A stretch of DNA of 60,379 nt, filler included, from Basidiobolus ranarum (GCA_040143965.1; 6 parts of 6 records of this genome joined end to end with filler, not necessarily neighbours in it), one strand, 5' to 3'. Counted from the first letter of the whole stretch, positions 1-59,000 are shown. A program made the numbers and translations. Notes: generated from the letters alone by a model not told the origin.

Positions 1-218
1 CCCAAACCCCCTGCTTTCTTTTTTAGATGGTGGATTGCATCCCCCAAACCCCCTGCTTTCTTTTTATACTGGGAGGACTGCGTGCCCTAGACCCCCTCTT
101 TTCATCCATACCCTTACCAGAACATCTATACCCTAACCCTAAGGACTGTGTCCCCCAAACCCCCTCTTGTCATCCTTACCCTCTGTTACCCTTACCAGAA
201 AATCTATATACCCTAAGT
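1..218. repeat. C-rich modular repeat (CCCCAAACCCCCT / TACCCTTACCAGAA modules) with a CCCTAACCCTAA stretch
   Basis: Module cccaaaccccctgctttcttttt recurs at 1 and ~44, and cccccaaaccccctctt at ~152. CCCTAACCCTAA lies at 131-142. The ~37-140 block recurs at 1160-1270. Confidence 0.8.
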
Positions 219-787
219 CAGAGATACAATATAATGATATGGTAATAGTTATGTGCACTATGGAAGTAAACAAGTTTTTAAAAAGAGGATCACATTTGTA
301 GTGCATGTTGACAGTCTACCACCAACTTAGCCCCTATAAAATCAGGGGCAATGCATAAAGGCATGTTTATAGTACTATGCAGCCTGTAAGTTAGTATGTT
401 TTTGAAATCATAGAGGGTTCTGTTGTGCACACTGCTTTTATTTATAGCATTTGGAATACCTTAGTGACAAATACCTTGCATTTTATACAACTTCTTAAAT
501 TTGTACCACCTTTGTGCTGTGTGGGCTACATAGCCCAAAAGTTTATTTATTGACTATTTATTGTTTTGTATATAAGTAAGCATATATGAAGCTTAGTGCT
601 AGTGATATGTCAATATTTGTAAAACATGAGTTGAAAGCATTTTATCAACACTTTCAATATTTCTAAATTTGTAATATAATTATGATATATCTAATATTCA
701 CTTTCTTCTTTATTTAATTTTGTAACCTTCATAAGGTTCTTACAAATATTACTAATTCGTAATGTTAATCAAGTTTCCTCATTACTC

Positions 788-1118
788 TCAATGGTATATA
801 AAGGATATTCTCAATAAGTAGTTTGTGAGTTATTAAGCAAAAAAGTAGCCAGTCTACTTATGGTAAAATTAAAATACTAAAAAGCTTTCAGAGTTGGAAG
901 GAATACATCTGCACTTTGGTTTCCCAGAGACTTTCAAATTAATAAAAATTAAAAACATATTCAATATCTGAGAAATTTCTCCAAATTCATAAAAATTATG
1001 AAAGCTAGAATAGGCTGTGTTATAGTGTTGGAAACAGTGTCTCTTCCTCAGAGGTGTCAAAGGTCAGAGATCTGACCTTTGGAAAATTTGGGCAAGCCCA
1101 ATTCTTCCCATATACTAG
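788..1118 (+). mobile_element. Non-autonomous Helitron-like element (~331 bp)
   Basis: Starts TC(aatggtatataaagg) exactly where similarity to the second copy (9830) begins, and ends CTAG (1115-1118) followed by T. Subterminal hairpin ggaaaatttgggc-aa-gcccaattcttcc (1081-1108) and a perfect 11-bp stem caaaggtcaga-ga-tctgacctttg (1058-1081). No TIR or TSD seen. Confidence 0.7.
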
Positions 1119-1140
1119 TGACTTGAGTATATTGTGACAG

Positions 1141-1270
1141 CAGGGTGTACATGGGCAATTGCATCCCCATACCCCCTGCTTTCTTTTTATACTGGGAGGA
1201 CTGCATCGCCCTGACCCCCTCTTTTCATCCTTACCCTCCCTTACCCTTACCAGAACATCTATACCCTAAG
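1141..1270. repeat. Second copy of the C-rich module seen at 37-140
   Basis: tgcatcccc..accccctgctttctttttatactgggaggactgc...ccccctcttttcatcc...cccttaccagaacatctataccctaa matches 37-136. Confidence 0.85.
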
Positions 1271-1691
1271 CTTTTCACCTCATTACTAACTTAATCCTAA
1301 GGTAAGCAATTCAAGTGGCAAGATGGTTTGATATGTGCAGGTTGGATGATTCTAGCCAATTAGAATTCTAGATTCTCATTTAGTCATATAAGATGACTAA
1401 CTATTAACATAAAAATCTAGAGGAGGTACTTTTTTAGAAATGGGAAACTACTGTATTTACCAAGATTGAAAATTTATATACTGCACTCAATATGGGCAAC
1501 TTCTGTGAACATCAAATTCAATAATCTATTAGAAACAGATTGATAAGTACTATCAATATCAAAGCGATTAACCGCTAGAGTATCACAAAGCAGCATAGAG
1601 TTCAAATACATTGTGTGCATAGAGTTCCAACTTACATAGCGTCAATACAACAATGGGATGATAAAGCTCACGTGGTAGTTGCTTATAAATA

Positions 1692-2660
1692 TTAATTGCT
1701 GTCGTATTTAAGCAACTGCGCCGGAGTTTTGAAGGTAATGAAACAATTAGCATTCCAGAACAGCCATCTATTATCAGGTCCCTTTACAGACATGCTTCGA
1801 AGTAAATTTCTGAGAATTGCCTTTTGCTGTTCAGTAGCGGTGGTCAAAACTTTCTTGGCAAAGAAAGCTAGTAGTAATTCGGCTTGCGCATCCATTTCCG
1901 TGCTTTCTTCCTTAAGGATGCAGCTTACATCAATGAACGTATTATATAGATTCGCCTGTACTAATGAATGTCTACTTAATAAGCGCGGAGCCCATGACGA
2001 ACGGAAATCTATATCTAAAGGATAAAGAGAGTAAATTGTCTGGAGTATATTAGTGCTGGTGAGTGTATATCCGTCTGCTGATTTTATGCCCGCAAGGAGG
2101 GGGAACTGGCAAGTACCGCCAGGTGAAGCATTATCAATCACCAGCAGGCCAGTGCTAGGAGTTAGAAAATCGATCATTCTACGCAAAGAGGGAGTTAAGG
2201 GACGAACAAAGTACATTGAATGAATACACAATACAAGATCGTAATTCTGAATGGTTGTTGGGAGAGTAAAATCTTCGAACTTCGTCTGAAACAGCTGAAA
2301 CGTAATATTCGGCACAATGAACTGTAGCGAATTTTCGAGCTCTACTTGTGTAGCAGTGAATGAAGAATCTATGGCCTCCGTGAATGCAGTAAAGCGGTTT
2401 GGATTTGGTTCGAGAGCATGGTACGTAATGTTTTGACATAGTGAAAGCAGTGTGTTACGGATGAGATGAAGATCAATTTCTCCATTACCGCATCCAACAG
2501 AAAGCACACTCAATTCTTCTTTCTTTTCAACGAGTTTGGCAATATTCTCTGCCAGCCATACTTTTGAGCTAAGACCTTTGTCGGTAGCCTGCAAGAATGT
2601 GTTGAAGGAACGGGTGTAATAGTCGTGAGATGTAATGAGGTTTGGTAAACTATCAAACAT
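1692..2660 (-). CDS. Class I SAM-dependent methyltransferase, histamine N-methyltransferase-like; single exon, 322 aa
   Basis: Motif I VLSVGCGNGEID, acidic post-motif-I LEPN, and YDLVLCIHSMYFV resembling the HNMT family. Uninterrupted ORF. Confidence 0.85.
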   Translation of the reverse strand: MFDSLPNLITSHDYYTRSFNTFLQATDKGLSSKVWLAENIAKLVEKKEELSVLSVGCGNGEIDLHLIRNTLLSLCQNITYHALEPNPNRFTAFTEAIDSSFTATQVELENSLQFIVPNITFQLFQTKFEDFTLPTTIQNYDLVLCIHSMYFVRPLTPSLRRMIDFLTPSTGLLVIDNASPGGTCQFPLLAGIKSADGYTLTSTNILQTIYSLYPLDIDFRSSWAPRLLSRHSLVQANLYNTFIDVSCILKEESTEMDAQAELLLAFFAKKVLTTATEQQKAILRNLLRSMSVKGPDNRWLFWNANCFITFKTPAQLLKYDSN

Positions 2661-3320
2661 GATAGCTAATCTGATAGAAGAACAAACACATGGTAGTTTT
2701 TAACATTCTGGATTCTACAACTTTCAGGGGAAATTCGTATGGCGTAACAATGTTACTATTCTCCCTTATCGACATTTCCTGCATTGGGCCTTTTTAACTC
2801 TTTAAGTTGAACTCAGGGGCTAGTGTGTCAACTCTATGGGCACTATTTAGCACATGAACCATTTTCATTATATCATATATGGAATAACAAGTAGAGTACG
2901 AAGTCGATCCAGGATAGTGAAGGGAGTTTTAACCTGAGTAATGTTTCCATCGACAGAATAATCAGCTCTCTCAACCCAGTCTTAAGTCTAATAAGAAAGC
3001 GCTCTCTGTGGACACTGTTTGAATCTATTCTATGATGCTTAACTAGGCTCCCCTTATTAAGCGCTATTTTTGTAACTTTATAGCTCAACTATAATACTTA
3101 GCAAAGCATCTACTTAGTCTTGTTGGAAACATGGCAATATCCAAATATTTGTTTAGTTTGGTTTTCTTAGAACTGGCTACAATATCTCTACAGATTCCAC
3201 ACACTGTTATTTCTACCCATATCCTCTGATTGATGCACTCGTATGAGCCCCCTTCATATGGAATTGGTTCAATTTTCTCTTTTGATGAGGGTGCACTACC
3301 CCATTAACACAACCGATGGA

Positions 3321-3355
3321 GAGCACTGCAAGCTGAGCACTGCAAGCTGAGCACT
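3321..3355. repeat. 14-bp tandem repeat x2.5
   Basis: gagcactgcaagct gagcactgcaagct gagcact. Confidence 0.9.
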
Positions 3356-3891
3356 TTTGCCGACTACACTAGTATATGTGCATTGGTGATAGTAACATGA
3401 CACATACAGGTGAATGTGATTCGGTAATGTCGGCTCTTCCGATGAACTAGATTTGAGCATAAAGCTAATATAAGAATCCCCATGTCAAACAATGCTGAAA
3501 TCAAAAATATGTGATTTGAACCCTCCTTACTCACGAATGCCATTTCCACAGAAATCATCCTGACTATAGCAAGGATCAATGCCATCTTCGTTTTAAACTT
3601 TAAGTGGAGTAGTATGACCAATGGATTAGAGCACTTTGGCAGGCTGATTTCCCCCAATGGTCACAATTCAGTGATGGACATTGTTTGTACCATCGTATTG
3701 TATAAATAGTATGCATAATCCAGTGTAGTTTAATTTGCTTAAATTATTTGATATATAACCCTAAGACTCACATTACAGTCAATTAACGCCATTCCCTTTC
3801 CCACAACCTTGTTTCTTAGTATGCATATATTAATTTTAATAGATACCTAATTGCACTCGTTAATAATGAGCCAGATATAGATACACCGCCT

Positions 3892-3949
3892 ATCATTACC
3901 CCTAATCATTACCCCCAATCATTACCCCCAATCATTACCCCTAATCATT
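3892..3949. repeat. 13-bp minisatellite x4.5
   Basis: atcattacccc(t/c)a repeated four times plus a partial copy. Confidence 0.9.
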
Positions 3950-4388
3950 ATGCAAGTATATATGATTCTATTCAGTTATTGGTCAACATTTCAAATGTTA
4001 AAAGCTGTTTCAGCAAAATTGTTAACTATATCTAGTGTCCTTGTGAAATGGGTTATAGCTGACTAATCTGGTGATAACTTCATTATTGAGAATGTATGCA
4101 CAGTGAGGAACTCGATTACATTTCATAACTGTGTGCAAGCATTAAATTCTTCAGTTAATTTTGAAGTGAAGTAAACCATCCGCTAACCCCTGGCATGATC
4201 TTGAGAAATATAAGGTGACAAATACTGAAACAATGGAAAGTAAGTTTGAATCTAATGTAAGATATGGCCCTGCATCCAAATTTCTGTTGGATCTAATCAC
4301 ACAAATTCAATCAAAGCCTACGTCGCTAGGATCATTGTGGGTCAGCATTGGCCCTTATCTGCTTTGACCTGCTTGATCGTCATGCTGA

Positions 4389-4670
4389 ATATTGCCACGT
4401 AAAGTGTACCAGATGATGAGCGATGATGTCTAGTAGGTTAAACTGCAGAAATATGGAATTGAGGTCTGGTTTGAATGCTATCCAAGATAAGCCCCTACAC
4501 GATACTGTGCATGAATTACTTTAAACCACAGAAATTCAATCACGTGGCTCCATCGTTAGGTTCATGACGAACCATAAGCCTCATTGATTGGAGTGCTATA
4601 TATTGCCACGTAGGCTGTGAGTATTCTTAAGATAAACTAGGATGCATTGATGGAGATGGTAGAATATAAA
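4389..4670 (+). promoter_or_regulatory. Putative promoter of the MpaB-like gene with repeated GCCACGT boxes and TATA
   Basis: Exact 13-mer ATATTGCCACGTA at 4389-4401 and 4600-4612, CACGTGGC at 4541-4548, and TATAAA at 4665-4670 (about 50 nt upstream of the ATG). Confidence 0.5.
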
Positions 4671-4716
4671 ATAGCAACGGCGAGACATCTAGTCTGGTAT
4701 CTTACTTAGTGTCCTG

Positions 4717-5760
4717 ATGTGGGGACTGTTGCTAGCCTCCACTGTTCTTAGTCTCTACCTTTTAGCGGTTAGAATACAGCGTTTTAAGCGAAGAAATCAT
4801 ATCAAGAAGCTGGGGGAACCATTACAAGACAAAGCCAAACCCCACCTTGCCCGAGCATATTATGAAATATATAGAGCAACCAGCAACGAATTTCCACTAA
4901 TGATGGAGTTCGCCTTTTCAATTACCTACGTCTACCTGTGTGGAATACCTAGCATCAACAAACTTCTCATTTCCACACATCAATTCATTGACAAATCTGA
5001 GAAGCGCTTCGAAGACACCGATCTACTGATGCGGGAGTTTATGGAGAATCTACCAAACAGTGAGCGATCGGATCTAGCATTTCGCAGAATTAACCTTTTC
5101 CACAGCCACTACCAGATAAAAAACGAGGATGCATGGTATCTACTAGGTCTCTATGTGTTTGTCCCTATCGACATGATAGCGAAGTATGAGTGGCGCCCAC
5201 TATTGAGGGTCGAGAAAGAGGCAATGTATCAATTTTGGGTGAATTTTGTGGGGCGAAAGCTAGGATTTACCCAGCATATCCAGGCCAATAGTTTCCAGGA
5301 GTTTGAGACTTGGTTTCGTGAGTACCATACCCAAAACCAAGTCCATCACAAGGTAAATACCATAATGGGAGAAGTCACACTGGATTACTTCCGAGCATCA
5401 ATGGCCAAATATTTGAAACCGCTCTCAGATACCATCATCCTACATTTCTGCAGCTCTCAAGTGCGACATGCCATCTTTTTCGAGCCTTCTGTCCCGGATA
5501 GTCTCAATCCAAGATTGATGAAGTCGTGGTGGATGTCGGGACTCATTGATGGCTTGCTTCAACTCCGTAGATTTATCATCAGATACTTCTTGCTTCCTCA
5601 CACTGGTGAAATTAGACGCAGCCCTGAGACTATGGGCTCTAACCACTGTTATATCCCTAACTGGGAGATATCCGCTGGCTGTCTTTATTCAAAAGGGTAC
5701 ATGACCGAGGCGCTGGGCCCTGAGAAATTTGGTACACAACTTGGAAAGTTATTTGATTGA
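4717..5760 (+). CDS. ER-bound oxygenase MpaB-like / DUF2236 (rubber-oxygenase-like) protein; single exon, 347 aa
   Basis: N-terminal membrane anchor. Family motifs KRFEDT, RRINLFHSHY (candidate haem His), IKNED, and WRPL..EKEAMYQFW. Confidence 0.85.
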   Translation: MWGLLLASTVLSLYLLAVRIQRFKRRNHIKKLGEPLQDKAKPHLARAYYEIYRATSNEFPLMMEFAFSITYVYLCGIPSINKLLISTHQFIDKSEKRFEDTDLLMREFMENLPNSERSDLAFRRINLFHSHYQIKNEDAWYLLGLYVFVPIDMIAKYEWRPLLRVEKEAMYQFWVNFVGRKLGFTQHIQANSFQEFETWFREYHTQNQVHHKVNTIMGEVTLDYFRASMAKYLKPLSDTIILHFCSSQVRHAIFFEPSVPDSLNPRLMKSWWMSGLIDGLLQLRRFIIRYFLLPHTGEIRRSPETMGSNHCYIPNWEISAGCLYSKGYMTEALGPEKFGTQLGKLFD

Positions 5761-6306
5761 AGTTTGCCACTTGGGCAAGATTTCTCTTGGAATCCATTCG
5801 AACTCGATTTTTGGTTACATCATTGGCTGGCTGAATGGATTCCACTTGGTCTGCCATTTCCAAATGTAAAGCAGAAAATCCTCCGCTACGTACAAATTTG
5901 AATTTTACCTATGGTTATGCTTCCTCTGTGGTAAATAAGCGCTAAATTTTAATATTCGTATCGATGCCGGAATAAATGTTTTCAAAACTGGGGATCGGCA
6001 AAAAGCATCTAGATCGTAGTCGAGTAGTTTGTGTGACTGATTTAGGGACGTATATCCTAAGTAGTCACTTCACGAGATGATTTAGAATAATTAAGAGATG
6101 TTCTCATTGAAACTTCCTTTTATCACCAAGAATTAGGACTTTCATCCGAGCTGGGCTCCTCACATGTTGAGTGGATTCTCCTTCGTAAGAACATCGCTTC
6201 ACGTTACATTCGTTGATGTGAGTTGCACAATTGAAACAAATGCTCTGAATTCCCTGATAGTTAACCCCCAGACCATCAGATGAAAGCTTGATGAACTAAC
6301 AGTGTA

Positions 6307-6358
6307 TGCATCAGTTGTGTATTCATTCTACTTGCATCAGTTGTGTATTCATTCTACT
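6307..6358. repeat. 26-bp perfect tandem duplication
   Basis: tgcatcagttgtgtattcattctact x2. Confidence 0.9.
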
Positions 6359-6464
6359 GGTAAAAAGGACTGTTACATCGTTTTTATTCATAGGCTAAAA
6401 AGCAGTTTGGTTATTAGCACTTTCATATATATATGATGTCAGCAGCGAACCAACATGACACGAG

Positions 6465-8078
6465 TTAAACTGGTACAGCTTCGACAATTGACATGATTGC
6501 TCGAATTTGCCAAACCTTACGAACTTTGAATCCTGAACACTCTAGTAAGTTTGACAACTCCTCTTGACTTCGCTCTTTATCCCCATTGAAAACCCTCAAG
6601 AACAGAGTCACCTGTGCTGCTAGTCGGTCGGAAAGCTCTGCATTCTGTGGCAGAATAATTTCTGAAATCAACAGAGTTCCATTTGGAGGAATTACTGCTC
6701 TGATATTCTTCAATAATTGAATTACTTCAGAGTCTGCCCAGTCAGCAACAACCCATCTCACGAAGTATACATCAGCACCTGGGCAAACAGACTTCTGGAA
6801 ATCGCCTGAAATAAAACTAGGATTAAAGAAAATACTGAAGCGGCAAAGTAGCGGATTTAGACACTACCACAATGGAAAGTAATACGCTCTAGCAACTCAG
6901 GATAGTTTGCATCCCAAATCTAAGAAGACTACCGTTAGTATTTCGCAGGATAATCGAGAGATAATGTGGCATAAATAGATACCTGTTTCGCTTGATTGAT
7001 CACTGTTTCCCGGTCAAAGAGTTGCCCACGAAGCTCAGGACGGTTATGCAGAAGGAAGCGTATAAACTGACCAACCCCGCCTCCAACATCTGTCACTGTT
7101 TTGCCGTTATGGCGAGTCCAATCATAATCTGAACAATTGTTAGTGATGCTGATCAATCTCTAAATATCACTAATATCACTAAGAACCTTCCACCAAGCCA
7201 GTATTAGTCAGTTGGGATAGACTCGCCAGGCCTTCTGCCAATTCCTTGACCATATGCAGATTCTCCGGTTTCTCAAGGAACTCATAGATACAATCGTCAG
7301 TATTATAGTACTCACGGAATGCTGTTCGTTGCTGATTGGGATCTAGGGCAAGGTCGAATTTGGTAAATACATTGTAGTTGGTTCCAGACCTGGGGAGAGT
7401 TAGATGAATTAAATGAAGGCCAAAACACTAAGACTTTGACGTTCTTACCAGTAGCCCACCCAGGGGAGCTGGCTTCTTGGATGATTCGCGCGAAGGAAGT
7501 CTGATATTCTGTTGTTGGCATAAATTTTAGATCCAACTTCTGTTTCTTTGAATAGTCCTGCGCGTATAATTGTTCGAAGCAACGTATCTGTACCAGTTGA
7601 AGAGTAATTAGCTACTTGGCATTATGCATGGTAACAGTCACATTTTAAGCAATTTCTAAGTTGACTATTGCGATTACTATTAGAAATCATTCAAACCAAG
7701 AATCTCCGGTCGTGCATTCACTTTTTGGGCTAATTCATTCAAATGAAGCGGGCCGTCTTGTAGAGCATCAGCTACTCCGTATTTACACAAGGCATAAATA
7801 GCTTTACTCTCCACAAAAGCACCAGTCAACTGACTAAGATACGTAGCTGGTGGAACTATTCTTGTTTGCAGACGATCCAATGCAGAGGATAAACGCTGCG
7901 CCGCTTTCCAAGCCTCCAAAGGTAAGAGAGATTGATCAGGGGAGTTGCCATCTAGATCATCACACACTCCAAGTCCCTCAATATCTTCAGCCAACCGGGT
8001 GGCCTGCGTCGTCAACGCATCAAATTTCTGGGTTAATGTAGCAAAAGTTCTTTCTTCAGAATTAGAAGTTGGGCTCAT
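6465..8078 (-). CDS. O-methyltransferase-fold protein (dimerisation domain + Methyltransf_2), 6 exons
   Basis: The spliced reading gives the winged-helix region GVADALQDGPLHLNELA, then YANNRISDFL, VTDVGGGVG, LFDRETVI, GDFQKSV..GADVYFVRWVVADW and KERS. Five GT-AG introns restore the frame (first intron 7696-7588). Confidence 0.9.
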
Positions 8079-9829
8079 ACTTGAATTAGGCTTGAAGTAA
8101 ACTGTGAGGAGTTGTTGTAAGCTCTATATATACTTATTGTTGACGCAATTTACAAGTTGAATGAGTGCCTGGCCAATGGGGATATGGTTAAAGCAACACT
8201 GAGACTTTGAAGTGTACGTAACACCCTAGTAGGTTGGCTACGTGGATAATAAGGAAATATTGGAAATAACCTCGCAACTTTACGAAGAGCAAAATACATC
8301 AGGTGATGATCCTTTTCTTCTTCAGATACTCAAGGTCATGATTTAACCCTATATTCTGTTGCCAATTTCATTCATTTACAAGCTTCCGTCCTGTAAAATA
8401 TTGTGTGGCTTCGTTTACTTTTCTAGGACCTTCGAAACACTTTTTTGTATCTATCCTAATGTTTTATCACCATTGTCTAGCACTGAGCCTATGTATAGGA
8501 AGGCTAGTTACAGAGGTGTGCAAACGTAACTTTCTTCACTGTTACCATCATATTTAATGGAGTGAAATTTAGTTAGTTGGATTTGCGGTGGTTATTGTAC
8601 TAGCATCAGTGGCTTTAATTAATATAGTTGCGGTACTTCAATGAAGCCATTGCAAGTCTCTAACATTGAACTAATTTTTCATGCATATCAGTCATAGATA
8701 GTTGATTGGGTCTGTCATACAGCTCAATTTAAAAATTTCTCCATGATATAATATCTGTCACCTTTTGGCACCTTCAAATGTGGCAAACTAACCAGTCAAT
8801 GAAGATTGTGAGGAAATTACTGGCTCCACCAGTTTTAATAGGAAAAATAGCATTGTAAATGGGCTCAGATGTACAACAAAGTGGTGCAGACTAGTATGAT
8901 AATCTTCCAGATATGGCAGTTAGTTTTTTTAATTAGTAAAATATCTTCTTCATGATTTATTCAAACTGCTATCGTTGAATCTTGCATATTTATCATGATG
9001 TACACCAAAGAAATTTTATCTTTTCTATGGTTTGTCACGCACTGGCAGTTAGCTATCACTCAGCACAAGAGTAGACACCTGGCTTAGTACAAAGTACTTT
9101 TGTCACTGCTTAAAATGTGGCAAAACTAATCATTTTATTCATAGAATTCCTTTCTATGTTGGTGACAAAATTACTGTACCTACTCTACATCTGTAAATAA
9201 GTCCATTTTGTAAGTAGAAAGTTCCCCTTGTTTCCACACACCCTAGTTAACTGATGAATTTTACTTACATTCACTATGAGAAATGAGAGGTGAAATATCA
9301 AAGAAAAATTGGCCAAGATTTCAGTTGATTCTGATTTGCCATTGGAACCCATTGTAATAAGGAAAGAAAATTGATTCCAAACTATTAAAAGTTGATTTAC
9401 AGCTCACCCAATCTATCTACCAGCTAGATTACAATGTATTATTTGTTAGAAACCTTTGTAAGATCTTCTCACCTACTTCACTATCATTGCATGTGCATTA
9501 AAAGACTTCATCTTATTCATTATATTATGAGAAAGTTGAGCCACTCTTCTATAGAACAGTATGCTGCTTTCATACCCTTGCATATTCTTCTTATGCTTAA
9601 CAGAAAGTTCCATGGTTGCATTGTAGCCATTGACTCTGAGAAACCCTGGATAGGCAATGTGACAATGGTCCATTAATGACTGTGTGACTCCAGGCCTCTG
9701 CTCATTCCCACGTTCTTTTTAATCATGCTACCTCTGGCAAGATTTCAGATGGCTTTCTTGATATCAGCCCACTGAACATCTGAATGTTAAACAATATCTC
9801 AGATTTTGGCATTTGTTGATTGAATTGTT

Positions 9830-10001
9830 TCAATAGTATATAAAGGATATTCTCAATAAGTAACTTATGAATTATTAAGCTAAAAAGGATCCAGTTTACT
9901 TATGGTAAACTTATAATACTTAAAAGCTTTCAGAGTCTGAAGGAAAACATCTGCACTTTGATTTCCCAGAGACTTGCAAATTTACAAAAATTAAAAAGTA
10001 T
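9830..10001 (+). mobile_element. Second copy (5' part) of the Helitron-like element, cut by the contig end
   Basis: Aligns to 788-960 starting from the same TC, with about 20 differences in ~172 nt by manual count. Confidence 0.75.
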
Positions 10002-10101
10002 NNNNNNNNNNNNNNNNNNNNNNNNNNNNNNNNNNNNNNNNNNNNTTAATTAATTAANNNNNNNNNNNNNNNNNNNNNNNNNNNNNNNNNNNNNNNNNNN
10101 N
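10002..10101. other. Artificial contig-joining spacer (N44-TTAATTAATTAA-N44)
   Basis: Identical 100-bp spacer containing a six-frame stop linker occurs five times. Confidence 0.98.
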
Positions 10102-10470
10102 ATAACCATTGCTGTGCGGCGTATCGTCCTCTATCCGATGATTCCAATACTGACTCACGGGTTAAAGATGGTGTTTATGACCACGCAATATACCGGGACC
10201 GTTTTCCCATATTATTTGAGGATCATAGGATTGGCACTGCTGAGCTCTCAGGGTATTTTCAACTCCGCGGTATTTCTGTTCGATCCAGCCTTGCAATCTA
10301 CTTGGCGTAGGAGAAGACTGCAACGTAGCATGTCTACCATTTCCAATGATCATACAAGTATTGTGATGGAGTGTAGTGACAAGAAACCAACCTTACAAAT
10401 CACTCACATGCCTCACTCACACACAAACCCCACAAATGTTCACTCTAATGATTTTATTAAGCAACTTTAA
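10102..10470 (+). CDS. 3' part of a cAMP-receptor-like / Git3-type GPCR (5' truncated by contig start)
   Basis: RRIVLYPMIP (TM6) and SSQGIFNSAVFLFDPAL (TM7) followed by a basic tail. Confidence 0.7.
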   Translation: MTIAVRRIVLYPMIPILTHGLKMVFMTTQYTGTVFPYYLRIIGLALLSSQGIFNSAVFLFDPALQSTWRRRRLQRSMSTISNDHTSIVMECSDKKPTLQITHMPHSHTNPTNVHSNDFIKQL

Positions 10471-20087: not shown

Positions 20088-20187
20088 NNNNNNNNNNNNN
20101 NNNNNNNNNNNNNNNNNNNNNNNNNNNNNNNTTAATTAATTAANNNNNNNNNNNNNNNNNNNNNNNNNNNNNNNNNNNNNNNNNNNN
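20088..20187. other. Artificial contig-joining spacer
   Basis: N44-TTAATTAATTAA-N44. Confidence 0.98.
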
Positions 20188-30166: not shown

Positions 30167-30266
30167 NNNNNNNNNNNNNNNNNNNNNNNNNNNNNNNNNN
30201 NNNNNNNNNNTTAATTAATTAANNNNNNNNNNNNNNNNNNNNNNNNNNNNNNNNNNNNNNNNNNNN
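30167..30266. other. Artificial contig-joining spacer
   Basis: N44-TTAATTAATTAA-N44. Confidence 0.98.
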
Positions 30267-40243: not shown

Positions 40244-40343
40244 NNNNNNNNNNNNNNNNNNNNNNNNNNNNNNNNNNNNNNNNNNNNTTAATTAATTAAN
40301 NNNNNNNNNNNNNNNNNNNNNNNNNNNNNNNNNNNNNNNNNNN
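40244..40343. other. Artificial contig-joining spacer
   Basis: N44-TTAATTAATTAA-N44. Confidence 0.98.
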
Positions 40344-40877
40344 CTTTGAGTCGATTTTTCTTTTTCCAGAGGGGTTTTCTTTAGTTAGGTCATCTTCAGT
40401 TTGAGCTTTCCGAATCTCAAAATCCGCTTGACTACGTTTGGCGATTCCTTCAACTTGCATACGTGTATTACCAGTGACACTACCGATATTCTCTTTGGCG
40501 ACACCATCAGCCCATTTGAGATTTGCGTTGAATTTGTCCGATGCTTTGATTGGTTTGTCGGATTGCTGAGCTAACCTTTGATATTCCTGATTTCCTTCGG
40601 ACCGCTCAATCGCACCAGCAGTCTCCAATTCTTTATCACCAATAAGATTACCAACGTTCTCCTTGACTGCGCCATTAGCCCATTTTACATTCGCCTGAAG
40701 TTTACCAACATTTTCGTTATTGGGGTTGTTTTCGGACTGGGCTTTCTGATATTCAGCTTCACCTTGTGCACGCTTAGTAGCACCTTCGATTTCCATCTTC
40801 TCATTTCCAATTACACTACCTACATTCTCTTGGATAACGCCGTTAACCCATTTTAGATTCGCTTTGACTTTACTCAT
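40344..40877 (-). CDS. CsbD-like repeat stress protein (hydrophilin), 3' truncated
   Basis: Three copies of K.xAN.KWxxG..xEN.Gx.xG...xxxG...R; the ORF runs into the spacer. Confidence 0.75.
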
Positions 40878-41326
40878 TATAGTTGAAATTAGAGGTTGTT
40901 TAGTGTTTGGGAACAGCTCTCTCTAGAGGTTTAAATGGGTTTTCCAAGTGCATACGTGTATATTCTTCTCCACGTCATAATTAATTTGAGCAGTATTTAT
41001 GCTCAAGGATAGATGAATTTTCAAGTGGAAGTTGTCATCCCTCTTGATGTCTAACTCAGTTTCTACCATTCATTGGCTCCTGGATAATGTACACACATAA
41101 TCGTCATTATTTGTTCTCTTCGTCATAGATCCAATGTGCATGATAATCAATGGGCTTCATGGACCGTTAGGGTTAGTATTCTAGAATATATCATGATGGA
41201 ATACTCAACGACTTTTTATACAGAATTTATTAAACAAGCAAAAAGGCATACGTAACGATCAATTTAAATTCGAAGAATGTTCGAGATGCTACGGAGATTA
41301 CATGAATGATGCTTACTTAATAATGT

Positions 41327-45467: not shown

Positions 45468-45915
45468 CCAAGTGTGGACATGACTATCTCAAGTAGCAAT
45501 ATAAACTCTTCATCCCCGCTCATCATACCTTTGTGTTGGATACTCACTCTTCATTACTCACTACTCATATCATTCCTCATTCCCTCGATTAAATAAAGTG
45601 GTATTTACAAGTTTAAATCCACAGTGGATGTTGATTTGGCTGCAGTCAATGATGTTTTAGTAACCGAAGCGCAGATTAATACATCACCTACGTCTGAGAA
45701 TGATCTCTCATGGGCAAACTTAATCAAGTTATATCTTTGAGCGATCTGAAGAGGTAGATTTATTAAAGCAATCCATCCAATTAATCCTAAATTAGGATAT
45801 ACACTTATCCACGATTTTCCATAGTATACTTAAAATGTCCTATGTGGTGGATATATATTCAGTAGTAAATGTATTGAGGCTCGCTTCTCTTCGTATTTCT
45901 CAGCTGTCTACGACA

Positions 45916-47326
45916 ATGACAAAACCTGTGCGTAAAGTCAACTTACCTTCTCAACAAGAGACGGTTCATTGTCGTGGTATAACGTCATCGACAGGTGCCC
46001 CCTGCAAGCAAAAAATTAAGTTATCTCCTGGTACAACCCCTCAACAGTATTTCTGTCACCATCATCGGAATCAACAACTTAATCGCTTTGGTACAAGGAG
46101 AAATGTCACGGGGGAGGTGTCAAAATATTTCCCCCCTCCAGACAACTCAGTTAAAGCTTTAACAGAGGATGTTAAAAACTTGAAGATTAAACCCACTTCA
46201 AATAGTAAAAAATCAACCACCAATCAACCTCCAACGAAACCAGTAAACGAAAAACCAACCACAAAAAAGAAAAATTTCTTTTCAAATGCCAAGATTTTCT
46301 TTGGAAAACTCAAAGCTAAGAAGAGTTCATCACCTGGTTTATCCAAAATAAGTGACGGTCAGTTTTTCAACAACCACAACCCTCACCAAACCAAGTTCTT
46401 TCCTACTCCATCCCAAACTACTCAGAATAATAATTACCATACACCTAATTTAATGCCTAGCCCAACTCAACACGTTTTTGGGAGACCCTCCTTTAAATTT
46501 GATCCCACTCCCACTTCGGTACTACACCATCAACAAGTAGTTATATGTCGCGGCGTAAAGCGTTCTGGACAGCCGTGTACCATGAAAGTCAGACTACCTC
46601 CAGCCAGTGAAATAGTCGAGAGTAGCTATTATTGTCGGCATCATCGAGAACAAGAACAATCCATTGATATGTCCTCCCAGTGGCTTCAAAGTAAGATGGT
46701 TTCATGACGGAATCATAATACATCGTTAACTCACTGTCTATAATGTAGGTTGGATGCCACAGGATATCTCTGGAGAGACGATGCACAAATTACGCATGGA
46801 AATGTCCAAACCTATCTCTGAGGGCGATCAACCAGGATTTATATATGCGTATCAAACTGAAGGTTTTGTACGAATTTAGATAGAACCGAACCTAAATCGC
46901 TTATGGTCCATTAATATGTGAATATTGTATTTAGAGTTGCGTTCGGATGGTCTTAGAGTTCATAACTTTTACAAAATCGGGCGCACCAACAATTTGCCTC
47001 GGCGCCTTTACCAGTGGCATAAAGGGTGTGGAAAACTGGTCAAGTTGATTGAGAGTTTCCCCGCAGCCGTCTCCTCCTCTACCAACACTCCAAACTTACA
47101 GTCCCCGTATAGCCATCGTTTGGAGCGTTTGATACATATTCACCTTGGAGATAGATATAAAGTTGAACCATTTTACTGTGTCGGGTGTTCAAGGTATCAT
47201 ACCGAATGGTTTATGGTGCCACATTCAGCTCAACATCAGGGCAAGTATCCTGGATGGCCGGAAATAAGAGAGATCATTCAACATTGGTTGAGGTTTGTTT
47301 ACACCCTTCAAACAAGTCAGGGATGA
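45916..47326 (+). CDS. T5orf172 / Mug113 (DUF1766) GIY-YIG-like domain protein, 3 exons
   Basis: EMSKPISEGDQPGFIYAY, YKIGRTNNLPRRLYQW, HRLERLIHIHL, CxxC..HTEWF. Two N-terminal CRG...C...CxHH motifs. Confidence 0.85.
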
Positions 47327-50317: not shown

Positions 50318-50417
50318 NNNNNNNNNNNNNNNNNNNNNNNNNNNNNNNNNNNNNNNNNNNNTTAATTAATTAANNNNNNNNNNNNNNNNNNNNNNNNNNN
50401 NNNNNNNNNNNNNNNNN
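50318..50417. other. Artificial contig-joining spacer
   Basis: N44-TTAATTAATTAA-N44. Confidence 0.98.
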
Positions 50418-55841: not shown

Positions 55842-56856
55842 TTATACCGATAGAAGAATGATCAATGCTGAGAGGATGGCTACATAGCTTTTAGGAGAGT
55901 GTGTAGCAGCGTTGGAGGTATCCACGCCCTCATTTATGACGGTATCATGAGGATTGGTTAACTCCTGCTGTGACAGACCCATGGTTGACGAGATAAAGGA
56001 AACATAATAGCCGACATGGGTGTAGACTCCAACTATGGTGTCGCTTCCACCACAAGTTGTTGACGCTCCTTGTGGGTAAGCACTATAGCTGGTAATGCCA
56101 TACAGTGAGAATCCGTTTTGTTCACTTCTGAATAAAGGACCGCCAGAATCTCCAGGGCAGGTGTCTTTACCAGTCTCAGCATCTGTACATATCTGAGGCC
56201 CATTGTTGTTCTTAAAACCAGGAACTACCTGGCGGCATTTGGTTAGAGAGGCAGTAATCAAGTCAACCTGCATAAGTCGAGCAGAGGGGGTGCCATCTTC
56301 GATCAAACCCCAGCCTGCAGCTGTAAACGTTTGTTTTTCGGATACCTTTGCAGTACTGATAGCTATAGGCTGGATACGCTCATCGAATATGAGCTCCTCA
56401 TCCAATTCCAATAAAGCTAAGTCATCCTATTATGCAACCATGTCAGTATAATGGTCAATAGCCTAGACGATCATTTATAGTCAATATGTTTACCTCTTGT
56501 TTATCAATAGAATACCCTGGAGCAATCACCACTTTTACGACCTTTTTTATCTTAGAGCTGGTGACGGTATTATCGTTGGTTCCAACTATGATTTGCAGTA
56601 GGTTGGGGGAGGTCAATGCAAGGGTTTCTTGATTTACTACACAGTGAGCAGCCGTGCCAATCCACTTCTTACTTAGAATGAAGCCGCCACAGGAGCTTAG
56701 ATTCTTCACCAACACCCGGGCCATAAAAGGGAACTCAGCTTCTTGAGCAACAGAACCACCGACAATAAATGAATGAGGGTTCAGTGCGAACCCTTGAGTG
56801 AATTCAAGGCTGAGTAGAGAAGAGAGTAGCGTAGTCAAGATTGAAATGGGTTTCAT
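55842..56856 (-). CDS. Trypsin-like S1 serine protease with hydrophobic C-terminal (GPI-like) tail; intron 56493-56427
   Basis: Signal peptide, IVGG, TAAHC, DDLALL, DTCPGDSGGP. Confidence 0.95.
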
Positions 56857-57972
56857 CGTTGGATGGGTCTGTAATTGCAGTGTGAGATTTAATGAATAAT
56901 ACGATCAGCGCAATTATGTTTGTTTTATAAGGACAGGAGTTCAATCGAGGTATGCGTAACTCAGTAGAAAACATCGCTTGGCATTTAAATATTTTCCAAT
57001 TTGAATTTAGAATGTGCGTATAGAACGCCAATCTCACGGAATCAGGTAAATTGACTACTCTAAGGAAAAGCAATGGAGATGGGTTTGTCTTCCAGTCAAT
57101 ATGCCTAATTATTGGCGTAAAATCCCCGACTCTATGTTCTAATTTGTCCCCTCTCACGCCGTATCCAGTGCAAGCTAGGTATTCAATTTGAATAGGTAGA
57201 TATTAGGTTTGAAATCCCTTTTTAATATCGATCATTCGAGCTGCCTCGAATTTAACTCCATATGATTAGAATTGTTCACATTGGATGTTGCTTAGCTAAA
57301 CGCCTCGCAACGAATTCCCTTCAATTGGTAAATGAAATGGGGCTGACTGAGTGTTGCGAATATCTCCAATTACGATCTTATTGAATGGGGTTATTAGTTG
57401 GACCGAAAAGGGTTTGGTAACACCGCATTTGGCCGGAAATTTCGGGCGATCAGATCGTTAAGGAGGGAAGTATCTTGGCGAGAGCAGCTCATACCTCAAT
57501 TGCTGACTGCTTCCAGGCATTTGCAGAATTTCTATTGGTTTCACTTACCAGTTAAATGAACGCCACCTGATTTCAAGCAATTTAACCAAGTGACATAATT
57601 AATGATTAGGCTCTTTTGCCGGGCCCCGTAATGGAGCCCCGTTTTGCATGCCGATCTGATCTATTGTACCCGGTTGATTGTAGATTTCGGTTGACAGGAA
57701 TTTGACTATTTGTTTCGTGGATCAGAGCTGGTGGAATTGTTCGGTGGCATTATATGTATCATCATGAGCTTGAAACGTAATTGAGTTCCTTCTCTTAGAT
57801 AATTAAGATAATTTGTATTGTCCACGAAGTCTATCCACTTTTCACTATGAAAGAAGAATACATATAAGTCTTCCAGAGAGGAGTTCTCAAATATAGAACC
57901 CATAGCCCCTATTCTCAACGAGAGTTGCTCTTTAATTCGGCTCCCTTCATAACTTTGTCAGCGGTTAAATTC

Positions 57973-59000
57973 ATGATACTAAGTACTCTTCTCAGTACCT
58001 TCTTGGTTTCATCCCATATTTACGCTTTGAAATCCCCTCCGAACAGTCGCATAGTAGGTGGCATACAGGCAACAGAGGAATTCAACTTCATGACCCAGAT
58101 ATTTGTAGATGATTTTGCAGTTTGTGGTGGAGCTATTTTGAATGACCAGTGGATAATTACAGCAGCCCATTGTACCATAAACGAAACTACTCTAACTACA
58201 ACCACAGTAGATCCAAAGGTAGTGAAGATCGCATTGGGTGGATTGGAAATGAAAAACCGACAAATAGTAGGAGTTGACAGAGTGGTTATTCATAAAGAAT
58301 ATAATCCGTTATCTCTCGCTGTAAGTAATATTTTCTCTATCTATTCAATGGATTGAAGTACACCACTAACGCAACCAATGAACCACCTTGGAACCTAACT
58401 CCTGAAAAGAATGATATCGCTTTGATTCACTTGGAATCCCCATTGCCACTATTTCACTTACAACAGAAAATCCCAATAAGCTTACAAAAGATTGAGCCAG
58501 GTCAGAATGTCACTGTGACGGGATGGGGCCAAACGGAAGTCAGTCAATACTCATCGCGACTTCTTCAAGTCACTCTCCGAGTAGCAAGCATACATCGTTG
58601 TCGACGAGAACGCCCTGATTTCAACAATCACAATGGACCTCAGATTTGTACAGGTTTGACGCCGGGTCGGGATACGTGTCCTGGAGACTCTGGAGGACCA
58701 TTGGTGCAGTTAACCCCGGAAGGTAGATACGTACTATTAGGTATCACCAGTTTCGGAACTTACAAAGTCGGGAAGCAGTTCGTTTGTGGCCAAGATAGTT
58801 TCGGTTTTTATACTCATGTAGGGTATTATCTTGATTTCATAAAGAGTACTCTGGGAGAAAATCAATTCTCCATGGTAAATAAGAGTGATATCAAAAAATT
58901 CGATAGTCAATCGATAAATCTGGGAGTTCCTCTTCAATCTAAATCAGCGCGAATGATGCTTTTCTGGACGATAGCATACCATATGTTCTGGATTTTTTGA
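57973..59000 (+). CDS. Trypsin-like S1 serine protease paralogue with hydrophobic tail; intron 58321-58409
   Basis: Signal peptide, R-IVGG, TAAHC, NDIALI, DTCPGDSGGP. Confidence 0.95.

What the first reader, a model, noticed from the sequence alone, without database searches (positions are those of the whole stretch)
1692..8078. Candidate uncharacterised small-molecule tailoring cluster: HNMT-like methyltransferase + MpaB-like oxygenase + atypical O-methyltransferase
Seen: the only three recognisable genes on this contig are all small-molecule-modifying enzymes, with no housekeeping gene between them and repeat-derived DNA on both sides. Known: MpaB/DUF2236 proteins and Methyltransf_2 enzymes are tailoring components of fungal biosynthetic clusters (e.g. 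the mycophenolic acid cluster carries an MpaB oxygenase and an O-methyltransferase), while HNMT-like enzymes methylate small nitrogenous substrates. Inference: a backbone-less (no PKS/NRPS/terpene synthase visible) pathway making or detoxifying a methylated, oxidised amine or aromatic compound. If the host is an insect pathogen, neuroactive amines are attractive candidate substrates or products. That last point is speculation.
Basis: partly seen in the sequence, partly recalled or inferred. Interest (0 to 1): 0.8.

Follow-up and report, generated by a model that had tools for sequence, protein, structure and literature searches.

The report
Three neighbouring enzyme genes, cluster unproven
A 10-kb piece of the fungus Basidiobolus ranarum carries two methyltransferase genes and a haem oxygenase gene side by side, but apart from their being neighbours nothing yet shows that they work together in one pathway.

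Summary
The three genes are real and sit at the stated coordinates. Gene 1 (1692-2660, minus) is a histamine-N-methyltransferase-like SAM methyltransferase. Gene 2 (4717-5760, plus) is a membrane-anchored MpaB/Lcp/anethole-oxygenase-type haem oxygenase. Gene 3 (6465-8078, minus, six exons) is a COMT-type methyltransferase with Ala328 where the family's catalytic His sits.

The window is six separate ~10-kb contigs joined by N-linkers. "This contig" is therefore only window 1-10001, from Basidiobolus ranarum. A contig that short holds about 2-6 genes anyway.

Every indirect test of co-function that I could run was negative or neutral:
- 0 of 80 bacterial MpaB-like loci have a relative of either methyltransferase within 6 kb.
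- 0 of 24 long homologues of gene 2 carry a methyltransferase domain.
- The 76%-identical paralogue of gene 1 lies on another contig, with no paralogue of genes 2 or 3 found.
- No shared promoter motif was found.

The one precedent is mycophenolic acid biosynthesis, where the MpaB step is followed by the MpaG O-methylation. Synteny in other Basidiobolus genomes, co-expression and the DNA beyond the contig ends could not be examined.

Verdict: correct gene calls, each an ordinary new member of a known family. The cluster reading is unproven and leans towards chance adjacency.

The parts
1692..2660 (-). Gene 1: intronless 322-aa HNMT-like class I SAM-dependent methyltransferase (P0003)
   Evidence: ORF. 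Pfam Methyltransf_23, E 2.2e-6, 28 bits against a cut-off of 27. Human HNMT 1jqd at E 1.2e-6, residues 3-177 aligned from the N-terminus, SAM motif VGCGNGEIDL against IGGGAGEIDL. Atlas HNMT-like clusters, score 0.98, TM 0.77. Paralogue P0004 is 76% identical and lies on a 9,021-nt contig.
4717..5760 (+). Gene 2: intronless 347-aa MpaB/Lcp/TAO-family haem oxygenase with an N-terminal hydrophobic anchor helix (P0001)
   Evidence: ORF. It has 916 homologues, and 32 of 46 aligned homologues hit PF09995. R97, T101, R124 and H129 are invariant. The family profile hits 8s1j at 2.1e-11. The AF2 model has pLDDT 92.2, with helix 2-32. Foldseek gives 8s1j TM 0.62/0.71 and Lcp 5o1l TM 0.57. All 30 nearest Atlas clusters are fungal MPAB_Lcp_cat clusters, TM 0.89.
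6465..8078 (-). Gene 3: six-exon, 420-aa COMT-type methyltransferase (P0005, named K7432_010692, Basidiobolus ranarum). Exons are 8078-7697, 7587-7449, 7389-7187, 7128-6983, 6919-6868 and 6805-6465. Ala328 stands at the catalytic His position.
   Evidence: The spliced translation equals P0005, and the five introns of 58-109 nt are all GT..AG. Methyltransf_2 at 1.3e-31 and Dimerisation at 2.8e-14. Best PDB hit is 6c5b at 4.9e-39; 'vvadw' aligns with 'llhdw', 'ivhdw' and 'vlhdw'. The B. meristosporus homologue P0006 (57% identical) has 'ILHDW'.
2661..4716 (.). 2,056-nt divergent intergenic region between genes 1 and 2. It holds a 13-nt tandem repeat (3885-3950) and two exact copies of ATATTGCCACGTA (4389-4401 and 4600-4612).
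   Evidence: 0 of 10 ORFs of 50 aa or more in this region hit Pfam.
788..955 (+). Left copy of a 168-nt dispersed repeat
   Evidence: 89% identical to 9830-9997, same orientation.
9830..9997 (+). Right copy of the same repeat, 4 nt from the contig end. It probably explains why the assembly broke here.
   Evidence: the contig ends at 10001.
10002..10101 (.). Artificial linker (N44 + TTAATTAATTAA + N44) that marks the end of the contig. Nothing to its right is linked to the three genes.

Best explanation
The locus holds three ordinary small-molecule enzyme genes of Basidiobolus ranarum. They happen to be the only genes on a short (10,001-nt), repeat-bounded contig of a fragmented assembly. Most likely they are not a dedicated three-enzyme pathway.

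Each gene has a readable chemistry:
- Gene 1 binds SAM (shown by motif and fold) and transfers a methyl group to a ring or amine nitrogen of a small substrate (inferred from its HNMT and carnosine-N-methyltransferase relatives). Histamine itself is doubtful, because two recalled histamine-contacting positions differ.
- Gene 2 is anchored in a membrane by its N-terminal helix. It binds haem b through His129 with Arg97 and Thr101 nearby (inferred from the conserved DUF2236 triad) and uses O2 to cleave a C=C double bond into carbonyl products, as MpaB', Lcp and anethole oxygenase do (inferred).
- Gene 3 is a dimeric COMT-type SAM methyltransferase with no general-base His. It probably methylates a nucleophile that needs no deprotonation (N, C, S or an acidic OH), as the His-less members of the family do (inferred).

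If any two genes cooperate, the best candidates are genes 2 and 3: cleavage followed by methylation, as with MpaB and MpaG.
For: - The gene identities are documented.
- The contig is only 10,001 nt, and the other five contigs carry about 2-6 recognisable genes each.
- The families are large: 916 representative homologues of gene 2 at E <= 1e-3, 457 at <= 1e-10, and 233 bacterial relatives from a single motif scan.
- No linkage was seen elsewhere. tblastn with P0003, P0004, P0005 and P0006 gave 0 hits in 80 bacterial MpaB-like loci of +-6 kb, while the positive control P0001 hit 80 of 80. 0 of 94 neighbouring ORFs in 14 loci are methyltransferases. 0 of 24 gene-2 homologues of 400 aa or more carry a methyltransferase domain.
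- The 76% paralogue of gene 1 is on another contig. The searches for genes 2 and 3 returned no second B. ranarum copy.
- The 13-mer found twice upstream of gene 2 is not shared with the other promoters: 4 matches at <= 2 mismatches against 1.56 expected, and 5 of 100 shuffles reached 4.
- No backbone enzyme, transporter or transcription factor is on the contig.
- GC and GC3 of the three genes (GC3 0.35-0.50) lie within the range of other genes in the window (0.34-0.49).
- His-less COMT-type enzymes are active methyltransferases (PMC10784701, passages).
Against: - Adjacency of an MpaB-family oxygenase and an O-methyltransferase has a real functional precedent. In mycophenolic acid biosynthesis, MpaB' cleavage is followed by MpaG' methylation (bioRxiv 524025 and PMC11934065, passages).
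- Basidiobolus is unusually rich in secondary-metabolite clusters (PMC7466969 and the 2025 preprint, passages).
- The three genes are flanked by copies of one repeat, as accessory regions often are.
- The bacterial loci are distant relatives (26-36% identity), so their neighbourhoods say little about a fungal arrangement.
- In the high-GC loci, my longest-ORF filter may have kept wrong-strand ORFs. Only 6 of 14 central ORFs were recognised as MPAB_Lcp_cat.
- The word-based search missed a 51%-identical homologue (P0007), so its negative results are weak.
- Synteny in fungal relatives and co-expression were not examined.
Confidence: 0.6

Rival explanations
1. The contig is a fragment of a larger biosynthetic gene cluster. 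The backbone enzyme (PKS, NRPS, terpene synthase or prenyltransferase) lies beyond the contig ends, and the three genes are its tailoring enzymes.
For: - The contig ends inside repeats only 1.7 and 1.9 kb from the outer genes.
- Basidiobolus genomes hold dozens of predicted clusters.
- MpaB and MpaG sit in one cluster with a PKS and a prenyltransferase.
- In one bacterial locus (L017) the MpaB-like gene sits next to a UbiA prenyltransferase.
Against: - There is no backbone, transporter or regulator within the 10 kb.
- Nothing can be seen beyond the ends.
- mpaB itself lies outside the cluster in Aspergillus pseudoglaucus, so the family is not reliably clustered.
Confidence: 0.15
2. One reading: a self-contained, backbone-less three-enzyme route that oxidises and methylates a pre-formed amine or aromatic compound, either as detoxification or as modification of a compound from the environment or host.
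For: - Three small-molecule enzymes lie together with nothing between them.
- The HNMT family acts on imidazole amines (family names).
- The PDB relatives of gene 3 include hydroxyindole O-methyltransferase 4a6d at 2.8e-21.
- Genes 2 and 3 are convergent and only 704 nt apart; genes 1 and 2 are divergent.
Against: - Every indirect linkage test was negative.
- The paralogue of gene 1 lies elsewhere.
- No shared promoter motif was found.
- Known reactions of the MpaB family are alkene cleavages of isoprenoid or propenyl chains, not amine chemistry.
- A rough estimate (inference, with an assumed share): if 5-10% of at least 11,438 genes (the highest locus tag seen) are 'tailoring-type' enzymes, 1 to 11 such triplets are expected by chance.
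Confidence: 0.12
3. Gene 3 is a decaying or non-catalytic copy. Loss of the catalytic His has inactivated it as an O-methyltransferase, so whatever pathway it once served is defunct in B. ranarum.
For: - Ala328 replaces a His that is kept in the closest homologue P0006 and in the three best PDB relatives.
- In RedM, changing the residue at this position to His abolishes activity, which shows that the position is catalytically sensitive.
Against: - The reading frame and all five GT..AG introns are intact.
- The SAM motif DVGGGVG and the two acidic residues aligned with those of the relatives (LISE, KER) are kept.
- DnrK, SibL, DsyB, RosA, PhzM and RedM lack this His and are active (PMC10784701, passage).
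Confidence: 0.13

Closest known systems
MpaB' (mycophenolic acid pathway), Lcp K30 (latex clearing protein) and trans-anethole oxygenase 8s1j: the PF09995 MPAB_Lcp_cat / DUF2236 haem-b oxygenases
   Same: - All-helical globin-like fold: TM 0.62/0.71 to 8s1j and 0.57 to Lcp.
- The Arg-x3-Thr ... His pattern is invariant (R97, T101, H129). This matches the conserved Arg164, Thr168 and His198 of Lcp (PMC5522427, passage).
- An N-terminal hydrophobic helix, as expected for an ER-bound MpaB'-type protein.
   Different: - Only 15-16% identical to 8s1j.
- Its own sequence is below the Pfam cut-off.
- With P0007 and P0008 it is more divergent than the rest of the family: 28-30% identity to the best bacterial locus, against mostly 34-52% for the other representatives shown.
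- The substrate is unknown, and no prenyltransferase or PKS lies nearby.
Histamine N-methyltransferase (human HNMT, 1jqd) and HNMT-like / carnosine N-methyltransferase 2 proteins
   Same: - Collinear alignment from residue 3, covering the N-terminal substrate-lid helix and the SAM motif.
- Structural similarity over the whole length in the Atlas: TM 0.73-0.77 over residues 1-316.
   Different: - E 1.2e-6 only.
- At positions I recall as histamine contacts, HNMT E28 and Q143 align with K28 and H147, while Y15, F19 and Y146 are kept (alignment; the residue roles are recalled, not taken from any call).
- The C-terminal 145 residues were not aligned.
- The nearest named clusters are animal or bacterial; none is fungal.
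COMT-type (Methyltransf_2) natural-product methyltransferases, e.g. 6c5b, AlpH 8h3t, GedA 7wh9; and the His-less members DnrK, SibL, PhzM, RosA, DsyB and RedM
   Same: - Dimerisation and Rossmann domains are present, with the SAM motif and the acidic residues conserved.
- Like the His-less members, it lacks the general base.
   Different: - It has Ala at the His position; RedM has Ser.
- I did not test whether it has the active-site Tyr that SibL, DnrK and DsyB use.
- Its closest homologue, in B. meristosporus, keeps the His, so the loss looks recent.
Mycophenolic acid gene cluster (mpaA, B, C, DE, F, G, H)
   Same: An MpaB-family oxygenase and an O-methyltransferase lie in one neighbourhood. 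In that pathway the two act in consecutive steps.
   Different: - There is no PKS, prenyltransferase, P450, IMPDH resistance gene or hydrolase here.
- An extra HNMT-like gene is present.
- The host belongs to Zoopagomycota, not Eurotiales.

Membership tests
PF09995 MPAB_Lcp_cat (MpaB/Lcp/TAO haem oxygenases): gene 2 | Sequence passes the Pfam gathering score | tested here: not met
   15.7 bits against a cut-off of 23, E 0.016. 32 of 46 aligned homologues do pass at E <= 0.001.
PF09995 MPAB_Lcp_cat (MpaB/Lcp/TAO haem oxygenases): gene 2 | Homology to a solved member, shown by profile and by fold | tested here: met
   Profile A1 against 8s1j gives E 2.1e-11. Foldseek gives 8s1j E 3.8e-5, TM 0.62/0.71, and Lcp 5o1l TM 0.57. 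The model has pLDDT 92.2.
PF09995 MPAB_Lcp_cat (MpaB/Lcp/TAO haem oxygenases): gene 2 | Conserved Arg / Thr / His haem-site triad (Arg164, Thr168, His198 in Lcp K30) | tested here: met
   R97, T101 and H129 are invariant in 46 and in 10 sequences. They align with KRADDT and NKIH of 8s1j. The triad is taken from a passage of PMC5522427. The mapping onto Lcp is by pattern, not by superposition.
PF09995 MPAB_Lcp_cat (MpaB/Lcp/TAO haem oxygenases): gene 2 | Binds haem b and cleaves a C=C bond with O2 | not testable with these tools
   Needs expression, a UV-vis Soret spectrum and product analysis.
HNMT / HNMT-like N-methyltransferases: gene 1 | Class I SAM-methyltransferase core with a glycine-rich motif, and HNMT-type architecture over the full length | tested here: met
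   Methyltransf_23 at 28 bits against 27. 1jqd at E 1.2e-6 with the motif aligned. Atlas TM 0.77 over residues 1-314 to an HNMT-like cluster. My own AF2 model failed (pLDDT 34), so the structural evidence is the Atlas model only.
HNMT / HNMT-like N-methyltransferases: gene 1 | Histamine-binding residues (E28, Q143 and an aromatic cage; recalled from memory) | tested here: inconclusive
   In the alignment, E28 aligns with K28 and Q143 with H147. Y15, F19 and Y146 are kept, and Y147 aligns with F151. The C-terminal contacts were not aligned. The residue roles are recalled, not taken from any call.
COMT-type O-methyltransferases (PF00891 + PF08100): gene 3 | Both domains above the Pfam cut-offs, with the SAM-binding motif | tested here: met
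   110 bits against 22.3 and 53.1 bits against 25.6. DVGGGVG is present.
COMT-type O-methyltransferases (PF00891 + PF08100): gene 3 | Catalytic general-base His in the (L/I)HDW motif | tested here: not met
   Ala328 (VVADW) aligns with His in 3 of the 3 printed PDB alignments and in P0006. It is therefore a member of the fold family, but cannot be filed as a canonical O-methyltransferase.
Fungal biosynthetic gene cluster | A core (backbone) enzyme in the neighbourhood | tested here: not met
   No PKS, NRPS, terpene synthase or prenyltransferase is on the 10,001-nt contig. 0 of 34 other ORFs hit Pfam. The DNA beyond the ends cannot be seen.
Fungal biosynthetic gene cluster | Conserved linkage of the member genes in related genomes | not testable with these tools
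   Fungal genome contigs cannot be fetched, and the listing of cluster members was off. Indirect evidence only: the gene 1 paralogue is on another contig, and 0 of 80 bacterial loci show linkage.
Fungal biosynthetic gene cluster | Co-regulation of the member genes | not testable with these tools
   No expression data are available. The only motif test was negative.

The most novel reading that the evidence does not exclude
The three genes may be a small host-compound-modifying set of a vertebrate-gut fungus. In this reading, an HNMT-like enzyme methylates imidazole amines such as histamine. A His-less relative of hydroxyindole/COMT-type methyltransferases methylates a nitrogen or an acidic hydroxyl of indole- or phenol-type amines. 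An MpaB-family haem dioxygenase opens a C=C bond of the same or a related compound. Together they would form a backbone-less route that inactivates or remodels bioactive amines met in amphibian or reptile guts. This would also be the first role for an MpaB-family enzyme outside isoprenoid or propenyl cleavage.
Probability: 0.07. Interest if true: 0.6.

Novelty: new member of a known kind. Interest (0 to 1): 0.22.

Why it matters
If the three genes did act together, they would be a rare case of a backbone-less tailoring pathway in an early-diverging fungus already known for unusual secondary metabolism. They would also give a first function to a fungal HNMT-like enzyme.

As things stand, the value is practical in three ways:
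- The locus is correctly annotated.
- Gene 3 is flagged as a His-less COMT-type methyltransferase, worth testing for N- or C-methylation.
- "All the genes on this contig are enzymes" carries little weight when the contig is 10 kb and the window is a chain of unlinked contigs.

Tried and rejected
- **Reading the window as one 60-kb locus.** Rejected. Linkers of N44 + TTAATTAATTAA + N44 separate six contigs sorted by length. The homeodomain, carboxypeptidase, pyrophosphatase, MsrA, trypsin and other genes are therefore not neighbours of the finding.
- **AF2 model of gene 1 from a two-sequence alignment.** pLDDT 34.3, unusable, so no fold search was run on it.
- **Bacterial relatives of gene 1.** 227 pattern matches, 0 confirmed.
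- **First scan with the 46-sequence alignment A1.** It had no stretch conserved enough. I repeated the scan with the 10-sequence alignment A2.
- **Bacterial neighbourhood test.** 0 of 80 loci had a hit. In 14 loci chosen for taxonomic spread, 0 of 94 ORFs were methyltransferases. For the size limit, 27 of the 121 ORFs listed were dropped: loci L039 and L052 entirely, plus the outermost ORFs (one search was over the limit).
- **Domain-fusion test.** 0 of 24 homologues of 400 aa or more carry a methyltransferase domain. One has an alpha/beta-hydrolase domain (P0073) and one has two MPAB stretches (P0013).
- **Shared promoter motif.** Not supported.
- **Compositional sign of foreign origin.** None.
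- **Cytochrome P422 preprint as a link between DUF2236 and tryptophan chemistry.** Rejected. P422 is DUF6875, and DUF2236 is only listed there as a known haem-protein family.
- **Labelling the representative homologues as bacterial or fungal through the loci.** Only 8 of the 151 representative proteins scanned (including the query P0001 and P0002) are at least 55% identical to a bacterial locus. No tree was built, because the representatives carry no taxon names.
- **Literature.** No paper on this trio was found. 'MpaB-like' gave 0 papers. 'Histamine N-methyltransferase' + 'biosynthetic gene cluster' + 'fungal' gave 1 paper, a review. The anethole oxygenase structure paper is not in the library, so its reaction is recalled.

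Full report
**What the window is.** The 60,379-nt window is not one locus. Five identical 100-nt linkers (44 N, TTAATTAATTAA, 44 N) cut it into six pieces of 10001, 9986, 9979, 9977, 9974 and 9962 nt, that is, separate contigs in order of length. The finding lies on the first contig, window 1-10001.

The protein database records the proteins of genes 1, 2 and 3 on a contig of 10,001 nt. The spliced product of gene 3 is identical to P0005, which its source names 'hypothetical protein K7432_010692 [Basidiobolus ranarum]'. So the organism is Basidiobolus ranarum, from a fragmented assembly. A preprint gives 65 Mb for the B. ranarum AG-B5 assembly at NCBI (passage); I did not verify that the window comes from that assembly. 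Basidiobolus is described as an amphibian gut symbiont rich in secondary-metabolite genes (PMC7466969, search listing and passages). It is not described as an insect pathogen.

**The observation.**
- Gene 1: 1692-2660 (-), 322 aa, no intron.
- Gene 2: 4717-5760 (+), 347 aa, no intron.
- Gene 3: 6465-8078 (-), six exons (8078-7697, 7587-7449, 7389-7187, 7128-6983, 6919-6868, 6805-6465) and five GT..AG introns of 58-109 nt.

Genes 1 and 2 are divergent, 2,056 nt apart. Genes 2 and 3 are convergent, 704 nt apart. Nothing else recognisable is on the contig. 0 of 34 other ORFs of 50 aa or more hit Pfam at E <= 0.01 (the 21 ORFs overlapping the three genes were not sent). There is no Rfam family and no tRNA.

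Both flanks carry short dispersed repeats. A 168-nt direct repeat lies at 788-955 and 9830-9997 (89% identical); the second copy ends 4 nt from the contig end. C-rich units of about 110 nt lie at 1-217 and 1148-1270. These repeats probably explain why the assembly stops here. None of them occurs on the other five contigs.

**Gene 1.**
- Pfam gives only generic class I methyltransferase models, the best being Methyltransf_23 at E 2.2e-6.
- Against solved structures the only real hit is human histamine N-methyltransferase: 1jqd, E 1.2e-6, collinear from residue 3 to 177, with VGCGNGEIDL aligned to IGGGAGEIDL.
- The Atlas holds a model of this protein (pTM 0.79). Its nearest clusters by features (0.98) and by structure (TM 0.73-0.77 over residues 1-316) are HNMT, HNMT-like and 'carnosine N-methyltransferase 2' clusters of animals, followed by bacterial class I methyltransferases. 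None is fungal.
- 'HNMT-like' is therefore a fair name for the fold family.
- At positions that I recall as histamine contacts, E28 aligns with K28 and Q143 with H147, while Y15, F19 and Y146 are kept (alignment; the roles are recalled). Histamine itself is therefore doubtful as the substrate.
- The word-based search found a single relative, a 76%-identical B. ranarum paralogue (P0004, K7432_011438) on a 9,021-nt contig. A scan of bacterial and archaeal genomes found none.
- My own AF2 model from the two-sequence alignment failed (pLDDT 34).

**Gene 2.**
- Its own sequence is below the Pfam cut-off for MPAB_Lcp_cat (15.7 bits against 23).
- The exhaustive HMMER search nevertheless found 916 representative homologues at E <= 1e-3: 457 at <= 1e-10 and 18 at <= 1e-30.
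- Of 46 aligned sequences (45 representatives and the query), 32 hit PF09995.
- The profile of that alignment hits trans-anethole oxygenase 8s1j at 2.1e-11.
- The AF2 model (pLDDT 92.2) is all-helical with a long N-terminal helix, residues 2-32. Foldseek puts 8s1j first (E 3.8e-5, TM 0.62/0.71), followed by the latex clearing protein 5o1l/5o1m (TM 0.49-0.57). Everything after that is noise.
- R97, T101, R124 and H129 are invariant. R-x3-T and the His align with KRADDT and NKIH of 8s1j. They match the conserved Arg164, Thr168 and His198 that lie next to the haem of Lcp (PMC5522427, one passage).
- All 30 nearest Atlas clusters are fungal (Ascomycota, Basidiomycota) clusters carrying MPAB_Lcp_cat, with structural TM 0.89.
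- MpaB' is an ER-bound oxygenase that cleaves the C19=C20 double bond of the farnesyl chain of FDHMP (bioRxiv 524025, passages).
- I infer that gene 2 is a membrane-anchored haem-b dioxygenase that cleaves an alkene. The substrate is open.
- In 14 diverse bacterial loci the neighbours are heterogeneous but often lipid- or isoprenoid-related: a UbiA prenyltransferase, an aldehyde dehydrogenase with an AMP-binding enzyme, a fatty acid desaturase, PlsX with FabH, and an enoyl-CoA hydratase.

**Gene 3.**
- It has Methyltransf_2 (1.3e-31) and the O-methyltransferase dimerisation domain (2.8e-14).
- The best solved relatives are bacterial natural-product enzymes (6c5b at 4.9e-39, AlpH 8h3t at 7.3e-36) and fungal GedA (7wh9). 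Hydroxyindole O-methyltransferase 4a6d follows at 2.8e-21.
- The SAM motif DVGGGVG and the acidic residues in LISE and KER are kept.
- The general-base His of the (L/I)HDW motif is Ala328. VVADW aligns with LLHDW, IVHDW and VLHDW in the three printed alignments. The 57%-identical B. meristosporus homologue P0006 has ILHDW.
- This is what 'atypical' amounts to. It need not mean inactivity: DnrK, SibL, DsyB, RosA and PhzM do not conserve this His, and RedM has Ser there (PMC10784701, passages). Most of these methylate N, C or S.

**Is it a cluster?** The only positive evidence is adjacency, plus one precedent. In mycophenolic acid biosynthesis the MpaB step is followed directly by the MpaG O-methylation, and both genes lie in the seven-gene cluster. 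In Aspergillus pseudoglaucus, however, mpaB lies outside the cluster.

The following points argue against giving adjacency much weight.
1. The contig is 10 kb, and a Basidiobolus contig of that length holds about 2-6 genes. 'All genes on the contig' therefore means three genes.
2. The families are large.
3. Among 80 bacterial loci that encode relatives of gene 2 (of 233 found), tblastn with the proteins of genes 1 and 3 and their closest homologues gave 0 hits within +-6 kb, while the gene 2 control hit 80 of 80.
4. In 14 of those loci, 0 of 94 ORFs hit any methyltransferase family. There is a caveat: my longest-ORF filter can pick wrong-strand ORFs in high-GC DNA, and only 6 of 14 central ORFs were recognised as MPAB_Lcp_cat.
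5. 0 of the 24 gene-2 homologues of 400 aa or more among the 150 listed carry a methyltransferase domain.
6. The paralogue of gene 1 sits on another contig, and the searches with genes 2 and 3 returned no second B. ranarum copy. The trio was therefore not duplicated as a unit.
7. The searches listed a B. meristosporus homologue for gene 3 only. This is weak evidence, because the same word-based search missed the 51%-identical P0007.
8. The 13-mer ATATTGCCACGTA occurs twice upstream of gene 2 but is not shared with the other promoters.
9. Composition is native: GC3 is 0.35-0.50, against 0.34-0.49 for other genes.

As a rough inference, suppose 5-10% of at least 11,438 genes (the highest locus tag seen) are enzymes that a reader would call 'tailoring'. 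Then 1 to 11 runs of three such genes are expected per genome by chance. The share is my assumption, not a measurement.

**What stayed unchecked.**
- Fungal genome contigs could not be fetched, so synteny in B. meristosporus, B. heterosporus and the new Basidiobolus genomes is unknown.
- There are no expression data.
- Nothing can be seen beyond the contig ends.
- Gene 1 had no exhaustive HMMER search, because the single job went to gene 2.
- The supplements of the Basidiobolus papers, which may list predicted clusters, were not opened.

**Verdict.** Each gene is a new but ordinary member of a known family. The pathway reading is not excluded but has no support beyond adjacency and one analogy.

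My estimates are:
- about 0.6 that the three genes do not form a dedicated pathway, with the gene 2 / gene 3 pair as the only plausible couple;
- about 0.15 that the contig is the edge of a larger cluster;
- about 0.13 that gene 3 is an inactive, decaying copy.

Noticed in passing
window 10002-10101, 20088-20187, 30167-30266, 40244-40343, 50318-50417: Identical artificial linkers (N44 + TTAATTAATTAA + N44). The window is six unlinked contigs of 10001 to 9962 nt in order of length, so any feature that spans a linker is an artefact.
   Followed up: yes
window 788-955 and 9830-9997; 1-217 and 1148-1270: The three genes lie between two direct copies (89% identical) of a 168-nt repeat. The second copy abuts the contig end. 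Separate C-rich repeats of about 110 nt, containing CCCTAA-like units, lie at the left end. No coding remnant of a mobile element was found.
   Followed up: partly
window 4389-4401 and 4600-4612; 3885-3950; 6307-6358: Two exact copies of ATATTGCCACGTA lie 328 and 117 nt upstream of the gene 2 start codon. There is a 13-nt tandem repeat (4.5 copies) in the gene 1 / gene 2 intergenic region, and a perfect 26-nt tandem duplication between the 3' ends of genes 2 and 3.
   Followed up: partly
L017:3264-8260 (Planctomycetota MAG contig JAJDCR010000137.1): A bacterial MpaB-like gene (5902-6753) sits between a UbiA prenyltransferase, an FMO-like monooxygenase and an aminotransferase on one side and a PLP-dependent decarboxylase on the other. 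This is a prenyltransferase/MpaB pairing reminiscent of mpaA/mpaB, and possibly a prenylated-amine cluster.
   Followed up: no
Atlas result for window 4717-5757 (+): A cluster of fungal proteins of about 959 aa that carry the MCRA (oleate hydratase) family aligns structurally to the whole gene 2 model (TM 0.89 by query). This hints at fusions of an MpaB-like domain with a fatty-acid hydratase, and at unsaturated lipids as substrates. The one long homologue I checked for this, P0013 (976 aa), instead has two MPAB_Lcp_cat stretches.
   Followed up: partly
window 40344-40922 (-): An ORF with three CsbD-like repeats (Pfam E 5.9e-20) lies on contig 5, cut by the linker at its 3' end. CsbD is, from recall, mainly a bacterial stress-protein family.
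   Followed up: no
window 55842-56904 (-) and 57868-59000 (+): Two divergently oriented, intron-containing trypsin-like serine protease genes lie side by side on contig 6, followed by a GNAT acetyltransferase at 59667-60059.
   Followed up: no
window 45796-47326 (+): A gene with a T5orf172 / MUG113 domain (E 5.1e-14) follows a Cys/His-rich N-terminal region with a weak DUF5763 match.
   Followed up: no
window 10114-10470 (+): An ORF at the start of contig 2 encodes hydrophobic, membrane-protein-like segments and has no Pfam match. It is probably the 3' part of a gene cut by the contig end.
   Followed up: no
(tool behaviour): The word-based homologue search listed only 2 proteins for gene 2. 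The exhaustive HMMER search found 916, including a 51%-identical one (P0007). Negative results of the word-based search, including those for genes 1 and 3, should therefore not be read as absence.
   Followed up: yes
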